A model generated the notes under the pieces. It saw only the letters and a program-made list of their open reading frames with translations. It had not been told where the DNA came from and did not search any database. The translations under genes were made by a program, and so were the position numbers. Of a stretch of 64,000 nucleotides of DNA, positions 33,701 to 34,950 are shown piece after piece. How positions within the stretch are numbered: the first letter of the stretch is position 1; each line of letters begins with the position of its first letter. The DNA comes from Nitrospinaceae bacterium. GTDB lineage: Bacteria > Nitrospinota > Nitrospinia > Nitrospinales > Nitrospinaceae. The DNA is taken from positions 1,408,001-1,472,000 of the forward strand of contig OZ250172.1 of NCBI GenBank assembly GCA_965237905.1, read 5' to 3'.

Positions 33701-34950
33701 ATTATTTCGAGAACTTCCGCAGTGATCTCCGTATTGGATTCCAACACCACTTCGCCGGTTTCCTTGTCGATGAGATCGTTGGCAAGGATAGCGCCGAGCA
33801 GGGTTTCAGGATCGATTTCCACCTTAGGAGACCGAGCCATCATCCGGCTCAGCTTTTTGATACTAGGAGCACCGACCAGCTTACCGGATTTAACGATCAC
33901 CTCATTGGCCTTGGAATCCACCACGTCTTCCAATACCTTGATGCCGACTATCAGGCCTTTTCCACCCATGGAATATTTTCCGTCACGGGTACAGGAAATT
34001 TTTTCTACCGGATAAAACGTGGAAAGGATTTCTTCCTGATTCATGCCAAAGGCATTGAGCAGAATCGTGGCGGGCATCTTGCGCCGGCGATCGATTTTGA
34101 CGTGCAGGATATCCTTGATATCAAATTCAAAATCCAACCAGGAACCGCGGTCAGGAATAACGCGCGCGGAATGGAGAATTTTACCACTAACGTGAGACTT
34201 CCCTTTATCGTGGGAAAAGAATGCGCCGGGGGATCGATGCATCTGGCTGACGATGACTCGCTCCACGCCATTGATCATGAAGGTTCCCGTCGGGCTCATG
34301 ACCGGCATTTCTCCGAGAAAAATCTTCTGCTCTTTCACTTCCCGAACGGAGTTGATCACGACTTCGGAAACCTTCTCCTTTCCCAGGAGCTCTACGATTT
34401 TGGAGTCGATCAAAGTTCGGGCAGGGATAAGCGTTTTCCCGGTCTGCGGGTGTTTCACTTCTTCTACAATGTATTTTCCCGGAAGCTCTTTCAGGACACG
34501 GGCGCTCACACCGATGCGTTCACGGTCGAACAGAACCATGCGTACCATGATCTTGATCGGATCAGAATACGTCAGCCCCTTCTGCCGGCATTCGCTCAGT
34601 TTGAATTTTTCTTTATACTTAACTTGTTGCCCGCAGGTTTCGCAAATCACACCTGCGCCGCCCAACTCCTTGTACTCGCCGCACCCGCATTCCCATACCC
34701 CCACTTCATAGCCCACATATTCCAGACGGGCATTGATATTCAGGTCGGATATCGGGAAGACATCACTGAACACTTCCTCCAATCCCTGGAGATTTCGCTG
34801 CTCGGGCGCAACCGCTTCTTGCAGGAAATACTCAAACGATTTGACCTGGATCTCGATCAGGTTGGGGATCTCAATAACCGCTGGGATTTTTGAGAAATTC
34901 AACCTGGGTGTGGGATTGACTTGCGTCCGCTCGGTGGTTGTTTTTGTCAT
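30745..34950 (-). CDS. rpoB: RNA polymerase beta subunit
   Basis: [33 protein letters not shown]. Confidence 0.99.

What the first reader, a model, noticed from the sequence alone, without database searches (positions are those of the whole stretch)
34621..34695. RpoB carries an ungapped copy of the RpoC (beta') zinc-binding motif
Seen in sequence: an insert near the RpoB N-terminus, [25 protein letters not shown], aligns without gaps to this window's RpoC motif [25 protein letters not shown] (30397..30471). 15 of 25 residues are identical and all four Cys are kept, while many shared residues use different codons, suggesting an old copy under purifying selection. The basic patch (RMKHK) is replaced by ELGGA. 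Established: the beta' zinc domain is a nucleic-acid/regulator contact surface, and E. coli RpoB has no such insert. Inference: an extra, charge-neutralised Zn ribbon on this RNA polymerase, possibly a lineage-specific docking site. Cys-rich RpoB inserts may already be described in other phyla, so novelty needs checking.
Basis: partly seen in the sequence, partly recalled or inferred. Interest (0 to 1): 0.75.

Follow-up and report, generated by a model that had tools for sequence, protein, structure and literature searches.

The report
Beta-prime zinc ribbon copied into RpoB
The RNA polymerase beta subunit of this Nitrospinota bacterium carries an old 28-residue insert related to the zinc ribbon of its partner subunit beta-prime; the insert lacks the basic patch, sits at the same spot in five other bacterial lineages, and likely serves as an optional contact knob rather than a DNA grip.

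Summary
Confirmed. RpoB residues 86-110 match this genome's RpoC zinc-binding domain at 15 of 25 residues without gaps; the next best match in the genome is 9. It is neither recent nor private. All 49 Nitrospinota RpoB N-termini read in full carry it. The same site, with the same junction spacing, holds a short four-Cys form (Tectomicrobia, Thermosulfidibacter), a CxxC variant (Persephonella, Sulfurihydrogenibium) and an eight-Cys form with a nested second ribbon (Acidobacteriota, Babelota). There is no sign of gene conversion, and the RpoC domain stays intact. The basic loop is neutral or acidic in 28 of 28 genomes compared. Four separate Nitrospinota clades lost three or four Cys together but kept length and core, and 14 Acidobacteriota genomes lack the ribbon, so it is accessory. 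Likely role: a zinc-braced contact knob on the beta1 lobe; no partner was identified. I found no description in the papers searched, but the two main catalogues of polymerase inserts could not be read and probably list the site. This scan has noted the insert before on at least eight other genomes.

The parts
34621..34695 (-). 25-aa beta-prime-like Cys4 module in RpoB (aa 86-110; Cys88, 90, 103, 106)
   Evidence: models
34612..34701 (-). RpoB aa 84-113, the 30 residues that replace 2 residues of an insert-less beta (net insert 28 aa)
   Evidence: alignment with 7ye1_C
30397..30471 (-). RpoC zinc-binding domain, intact and basic; the likely source of the copy
30745..34950 (-). rpoB, 1401 aa, host gene; the insert lies in the beta1 (protrusion) domain
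26578..30669 (-). rpoC, 1363 aa, next gene of the operon
34345..34527 (-). Second, unrelated insert in beta1 (aa 142-202, about 50 aa extra), BBM2/BEAN-like; context, not part of the zinc module

Best explanation
The insert is related to the beta-prime zinc-binding domain and was likely copied once, long ago, into a loop of the beta1 lobe, where it is predicted to fold as a zinc ribbon and likely acts as an accessory contact or steric knob rather than a nucleic-acid grip. Shown: homology, fixed site and junctions in six lineages, conservation, loss of the basic loop, concerted Cys loss, loss of the ribbon in some Acidobacteriota. Inferred: direction beta-prime to beta (the beta-prime domain is pan-bacterial, the beta copy patchy); a single origin; zinc binding; a position near upstream DNA and sigma region 3, where it would adjust promoter opening, escape or factor access. 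My odds: homology 0.97, single old origin 0.8, zinc bound in the Cys4 forms 0.9, contact or steric role 0.45.
For: Homology: RpoC hit at about 1e-5 per genome; beta-prime chains matched on query 84-112, whole-sequence E 1.6e-6 to 2.8e-4; profile of the insert scores RpoC 28.5 bits and finds nothing in 2 of 2 insert-less RpoBs. The module equals the bacteria-specific insertional domain beta'-bD1 of PMC11515920 Table 2. One origin: last Cys lies 14 residues before the conserved E-C in 117 of 119 pattern loci and 28 of 31 Aquificota proteins; Gly at motif position 10 in 114 of 118 parsed loci where RpoC has R/K/H. Age: identity to own RpoC 12.79 versus 12.83 to other RpoCs, 28 pairs. Selection: insert as conserved as its flanks (0.62 versus 0.62-0.66, 37 rows). 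Zinc: Cys are lost in sets. Model pLDDT 93-95 over the insert in context. Not a nucleic-acid grip: loop charge -4 to 0 versus +4/+5 in 28 of 28 pairs; the positions of E. coli R77 and K79, which contact putRNA (PMC9378689), read E and G here.
Against: No partner or phenotype was found. The insert is less conserved than the RpoC domain (0.62 versus 0.91). It is absent or reduced in 14 of 117 Acidobacteriota genomes whose RpoB N-terminus was found. Fold searches with the isolated model were not significant (best Foldseek E 2.7, rmsd 2.9 over 26 columns to a beta-prime chain; best Z 2.5). In one search no single beta-prime stretch passed E 0.001 on its own. The conserved W, Y/F, L and GG could simply be buried packing residues. 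The nearness to sigma region 3 is recalled from holoenzyme structures, not computed here.
Confidence: 0.6

Rival explanations
1. Structural filler: the old copy is kept because it now packs on beta and stiffens the beta1 lobe, with no outside partner.
For: The invariant residues are W, G and hydrophobic core positions. Cys-less clades keep length and core. Some Acidobacteriota keep only a short hairpin remnant.
Against: Most bacteria do without it. A second ribbon was added inside it and kept across Acidobacteriota and Babelota, which suggests an exposed, used surface.
Confidence: 0.25
2. A second nucleic-acid-binding ribbon that touches upstream DNA or RNA as the beta-prime domain does.
For: Same fold class; beta1 borders the upstream duplex (PMC11001881 passages); one Lys of the loop is kept in 21 of 37 short forms.
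Against: Loop charge is 0 or negative in 28 of 28 inserts; whole-motif charge reaches -7 in a Cys-less clade.
Confidence: 0.05
3. A zinc or redox sensor that tunes the polymerase when its cysteines lose metal or are oxidised.
For: Exposed Cys4 site; repeated switches between Cys-bearing and Cys-less forms, like the zinc and non-zinc forms of ribosomal proteins (recalled; PMC3087516 seen only as a search listing).
Against: Cys-less forms keep the module, which fits zinc economy better than sensing. No data on metal exchange.
Confidence: 0.05
4. A decoy for phage or host factors that target the beta-prime zinc domain.
For: The beta-prime domain is a target of putRNA, RapA and the RfaH KOW domain.
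Against: The contacted residues (R77, K79, H80 equivalents) are the ones changed; a decoy should track RpoC, and it does not.
Confidence: 0.04
5. Assembly chimera, recent duplication or ongoing gene conversion from rpoC.
For: The two stretches lie 4.2 kb apart in one operon.
Against: DNA identity 44 of 75; present in 49 of 49 independent Nitrospinota assemblies read and in cultured isolates of other phyla; no excess likeness to own RpoC.
Confidence: 0.01

Closest known systems
Bacterial RNA polymerase beta-prime zinc-binding domain (beta'-bD1, CATH 3.90.820.30; E. coli residues about 68-92)
   Same: Length, C-x-C and C-x2-C spacing, core residues; 15 of 25 identical here.
   Different: Sits in beta, not beta-prime; basic loop replaced by acidic and glycine residues; Cys can be lost; patchy and dispensable, whereas the RpoC domain was intact in every genome checked.
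Lineage-specific inserts of RNA polymerase beta (beta-i4, i9, i11; BEAN/BBM2 and HABAS/SBHM domains)
   Same: A small domain inserted in a surface loop of a core subunit, related to a domain elsewhere in the enzyme, inherited by lineage and probably dispensable (PMC11515920 parts 1-2, PMC2939025 part 4).
   Different: A zinc ribbon of 28 aa. PMC11515920 left out inserts under 50 aa and has no occurrence of 'zinc' or 'ribbon'. It may be one of the inserts numbered before beta-i4 by Lane and Darst 2010, which I could not read.
Zinc and non-zinc (C+/C-) forms of zinc ribbons in ribosomal proteins (recalled; PMC3087516 seen as listing only)
   Same: Concerted Cys loss with the module kept.
   Different: Here it happens in place in a single-copy core gene, four times within one order, with no paralog seen.

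Membership tests
beta-prime zinc-binding domain (homolog) | Cys4 in C-x-C-x12-C-x2-C spacing | tested here: met
beta-prime zinc-binding domain (homolog) | Sequence similarity beyond the cysteines and beyond chance | tested here: met
beta-prime zinc-binding domain (homolog) | Zinc-ribbon fold superposable on the beta-prime domain | tested here: inconclusive
   Two knuckle hairpins in both models; fold-search rows are mostly beta-prime chains and other zinc ribbons but none is significant
beta-prime zinc-binding domain (homolog) | Binds zinc | not testable with these tools
   Inferred from concerted Cys loss
beta-prime zinc-binding domain (functional member) | Basic loop that contacts nucleic acid (E. 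coli R77, K79) | tested here: not met
   Loop charge -4 to 0 in 28 of 28 inserts; contacts from PMC9378689
beta-prime zinc-binding domain (functional member) | Located in the beta-prime clamp beside the RNA exit channel | tested here: not met
   Lies in the beta1 domain of RpoB
Lineage-specific insert of RNA polymerase beta | Fixed site between shared regions, present in some lineages only | tested here: met
Lineage-specific insert of RNA polymerase beta | Dispensable for core transcription | tested here: inconclusive
   Natural absence in 14 of 117 Acidobacteriota genomes; no experiment
Lineage-specific insert of RNA polymerase beta | Identity with a numbered insert of Lane and Darst 2010 | not testable with these tools
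   Papers not held
CarD substitute on beta1 | Insert present only where CarD is missing | tested here: not met
   Family f9 has the insert and CarD-sized frames in 3 of 3 genomes; CarD is listed for Acidobacteria and Aquificae in PMC4593161 Table 1

The most novel reading that the evidence does not exclude
One ancient copy of the beta-prime zinc ribbon into beta gave the ancestor of Nitrospinota, Tectomicrobia, Thermosulfidibacter, Aquificota, Acidobacteriota and Babelota a second, charge-inverted ribbon on the upstream face of the polymerase. It would be an unrecognised regulator or sigma docking site and a rare shared marker that ties Aquificota to these phyla.
Probability: 0.25. Interest if true: 0.68.

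Novelty: new variant of a known kind. Interest (0 to 1): 0.45.

Why it matters
No solved beta subunit among the 70 sequences matched (60 shown) displayed the insert, yet it is carried by abundant soil and marine bacteria. It shows a third kind of domain shared between the two large subunits, besides BEAN and HABAS. It supplies natural Cys4, Cys-less, nested and deleted versions for a structure-function test, with cultured hosts in several phyla. Its fixed junctions make it a candidate marker for deep bacterial phylogeny, including the disputed place of Aquificota (the dispute is recalled).

Tried and rejected
Complex prediction of RpoB aa 14-232 with sigma70 region 3 and zinc: score 0.02, no verdict, no evidence either way. 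Fold searches with the 132-aa model returned beta chains in the rows shown and did not test the insert; with the 37-aa model nothing was significant, and the second look at the Foldseek rows was not obtained. Pfam gives no family for the insert alone. The protein atlas gave only RpoB N-terminal clusters at 0.89-0.90. The profile search of 1.84 billion representatives gave 129 hits, mostly truncated or frameshifted fragments (78 unparsed, 26 without the junction pattern); it was used only for leads. Rejected: CarD substitute; replacement of a damaged RpoC domain (intact in all); gene conversion; a tandem reading of the eight-Cys form (see report). Three pattern hits titled Arcobacter, Bifidobacteriaceae and Eisenbacteria have Acidobacteriota-like sequence and two titled Pseudomonadota/Proteobacteria are Babelota-like; I treat them as likely mislabelled and do not count those phyla. 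Literature: ten searches, eight of them aimed at a prior description, listed none; one search returned only irrelevant papers.

Full report
Observation. Both quoted peptides are in frame on the minus strand, in rpoB (aa 86-110) and rpoC. They share 15 of 25 residues and all four Cys; 8 of the 15 use different codons and the DNA is 44 of 75 identical. The next best of 6,173,066 six-frame windows in the genome scores 9. A search of solved chains with RpoB 1-200 matches beta on both sides of the insert and beta-prime on residues 84-112, which align to E. coli beta-prime 66-94 (whole-sequence E 1.6e-6 to 2.8e-4; no single stretch passed 0.001 alone). The net insert is 28 aa, after the residue matching E. 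coli beta 76. The segment belongs to the beta1 domain: its model aligns to the beta1 constructs solved with CarD and Mfd. Close homologs are named Nitrospina and Nitrospinota.

Within the phylum. 105 of 120 genomes match the region, 56 of 57 among near-complete ones; 5 of the 105 match only through RpoC. I read 49 RpoB N-termini in full (29, 20) plus one cut by a contig end; all carry the insert at the same length. It is as conserved as its flanks (0.62 versus 0.62-0.66 over 37 rows) and less than the RpoC domain (0.91). In 28 genomes with both genes read, the insert is no closer to its own RpoC (12.79 identities) than to the others (12.83), so there is no gene conversion. In the same 28 the RpoC domain keeps four Cys and a loop charge of +4 or +5, while the insert loop is -4 to 0. 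On a tree built without the insert (59 rows, quick search, SH-aLRT only; L030 and L049 left out), 11 rows with zero or one Cys fall into four clades (support 100, 100, 85, 100), one in each family of the order, each among Cys4 relatives. These rows keep the length and the W, G-E-Y/F, L-G-G and closing core. Ligands lost as a set are the usual sign of a structural metal site (established knowledge).

Other phyla. By record title: 100 Acidobacteriota, 8 Babelota/Dependentiae/TM6, 4 Nitrospinota, 1 Aquificota, 1 unnamed, and 5 that I consider mislabelled. Six are short forms; the rest are about 30 aa longer with mostly 8 or 9 Cys. The last Cys lies 14 residues before the conserved E-C in 117 of 119 (one has an extra Cys, one a frameshift), and position 10 is Gly in 114 of 118 parsed loci where RpoC has R, K or H. 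Protein searches add the short form in clusters named Thermosulfidibacter takaii and Tectomicrobia (13 of 121 hits) and a variant with a C-x2-C first knuckle in Persephonella and Sulfurihydrogenibium (29 of 31 parsed, all four-Cys, spacing 14 in 28). My pattern cannot see that variant or Cys-less forms, so absence from other phyla was not tested. In a sample of 121 Acidobacteriota genomes 102 match the long insert (one of them, G146, is unpublished and enters this tally only). Of the 19 misses, 15 had a findable RpoB N-terminus: 1 keeps the outer four Cys, 12 keep a Cys-poor remnant and 2 have no insert.

Nested, not tandem. In 89 of 112 long forms the first four Cys have exactly the beta-prime spacing, so sequence alone allows a tandem reading. 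Natural variants favour nesting. L248 replaces Cys 3-6 at full length and keeps 1, 2, 7, 8. Babelota loci L068 and L131 lose most inner Cys and keep the outer four. L243 and P0311 have only one outer set. In L094 and L136 the last knuckle is preceded by the beta-prime-like R-G-V-V/I. So the outer site likely corresponds to the Nitrospinota ribbon, with a second ribbon added in its loop. This is inferred; the long form was not modelled.

Fold. In context the insert is modelled at pLDDT 93-95 with two short hairpins; alone at 82.7. Foldseek rows for the isolated model are mostly beta-prime chains plus Nob1, rubredoxin, Rpb12 and similar ribbons, but the best E is 2.7. The wide structural search gives seven rows at Z 2.0-2.5 (best: Nob1, rmsd 3.4 over 37; MetRS, rmsd 1.7 over 33), in proteins whose zinc knuckles I recall. 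This is consistent with a zinc ribbon and proves nothing more.

How it likely works. The beta-prime domain is itself listed as a 27-residue insertional domain common to bacteria (PMC11515920 Table 2); its ends lie close together, which would let a copy fit into a hairpin loop of beta (inference). Since it is general and the beta copy is patchy, the copy probably went from rpoC to rpoB once. In E. coli the domain contacts putRNA through R77, L78 and K79 (PMC9378689), RapA through K66 and H80 (PMC8501970) and the RfaH KOW domain through K87 (PMC11001881). In the copy the R77, K79 and H80 positions read E, G, G, so those functions are unlikely to have come along. Beta1 borders the upstream duplex, and I recall the host loop lying near sigma region 3; neither places the insert itself. 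I therefore favour an accessory knob that contacts or sterically guides sigma, upstream DNA or a factor (0.45), with plain structural packing as the main rival (0.25). It is not a CarD stand-in and does not replace the RpoC domain.

Prior knowledge. Ten paper searches, eight aimed at a prior description, listed none. Read: PMC11515920 parts 1-2 of 6 and passages (it omits inserts under 50 aa; 'zinc' and 'ribbon' do not occur); PMC2939025 passages and part 4 of 9; passages of PMC9378689, PMC8501970, PMC11001881, PMC3578206, PMC1586193 and PMC4593161. No supplements were read. Lane and Darst 2010 (both papers) and Iyer 2003 were not held; Iyer 2004 was not looked up. Lane and Darst covered Acidobacteria and Aquificae and numbered inserts before beta-i4, so I put about 0.6 on the site being catalogued there or in their supplements, and less on the beta-prime origin being stated. 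Earlier notes of this scan report the same insert on eight other genomes; I checked their main claims myself as above.

Verdict. Real, old and widespread; a new variant of the known class of lineage-specific polymerase inserts; function unproven. Interest 0.45.

Noticed in passing
window 34345..34527 (-), RpoB aa 142-202: A second beta1 insert of about 50 aa, BBM2/BEAN-like (its profile hits the beta-i4 repeats and a beta-prime domain at E about 1e-7 to 1e-8 in a small set), at a site not among the five listed in PMC11515920. Seen in the window's order and families f5-f7, not in f8, f9 or the other phyla read. CarD-sized frames (159-184 aa) occur only in f9 (3 of 3) among 74 genomes, so CarD loss may go with this insert; this is one evolutionary event and two long-frame second matches (G042, G045) were not examined.
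   Followed up: partly
window 37235..38053 (-): NusG frame of 272 aa with an acidic, repetitive N-terminal extension of about 100 aa; start site not checked.
   Followed up: no
P0304: Acidobacteriota-type RpoB fragment in which the long insert is collapsed to exactly the short length with four Cys; could be real or an assembly slip between the two similar knuckles.
   Followed up: no
P0138; P0466: Short-form inserts with a longer loop between the knuckles, showing that this loop tolerates additions.
   Followed up: no
P0375, P0409: Very divergent RpoB-like proteins (1277 and 1221 aa) of unknown origin with a Cys-rich insert after a similar junction.
   Followed up: no
L118, L155, L086, L058, L068: Records whose titles (Arcobacter, Bifidobacteriaceae, Eisenbacteria, Pseudomonadota, Proteobacteria) disagree with their Acidobacteriota- or Babelota-like RpoB; likely mislabelled.
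   Followed up: no
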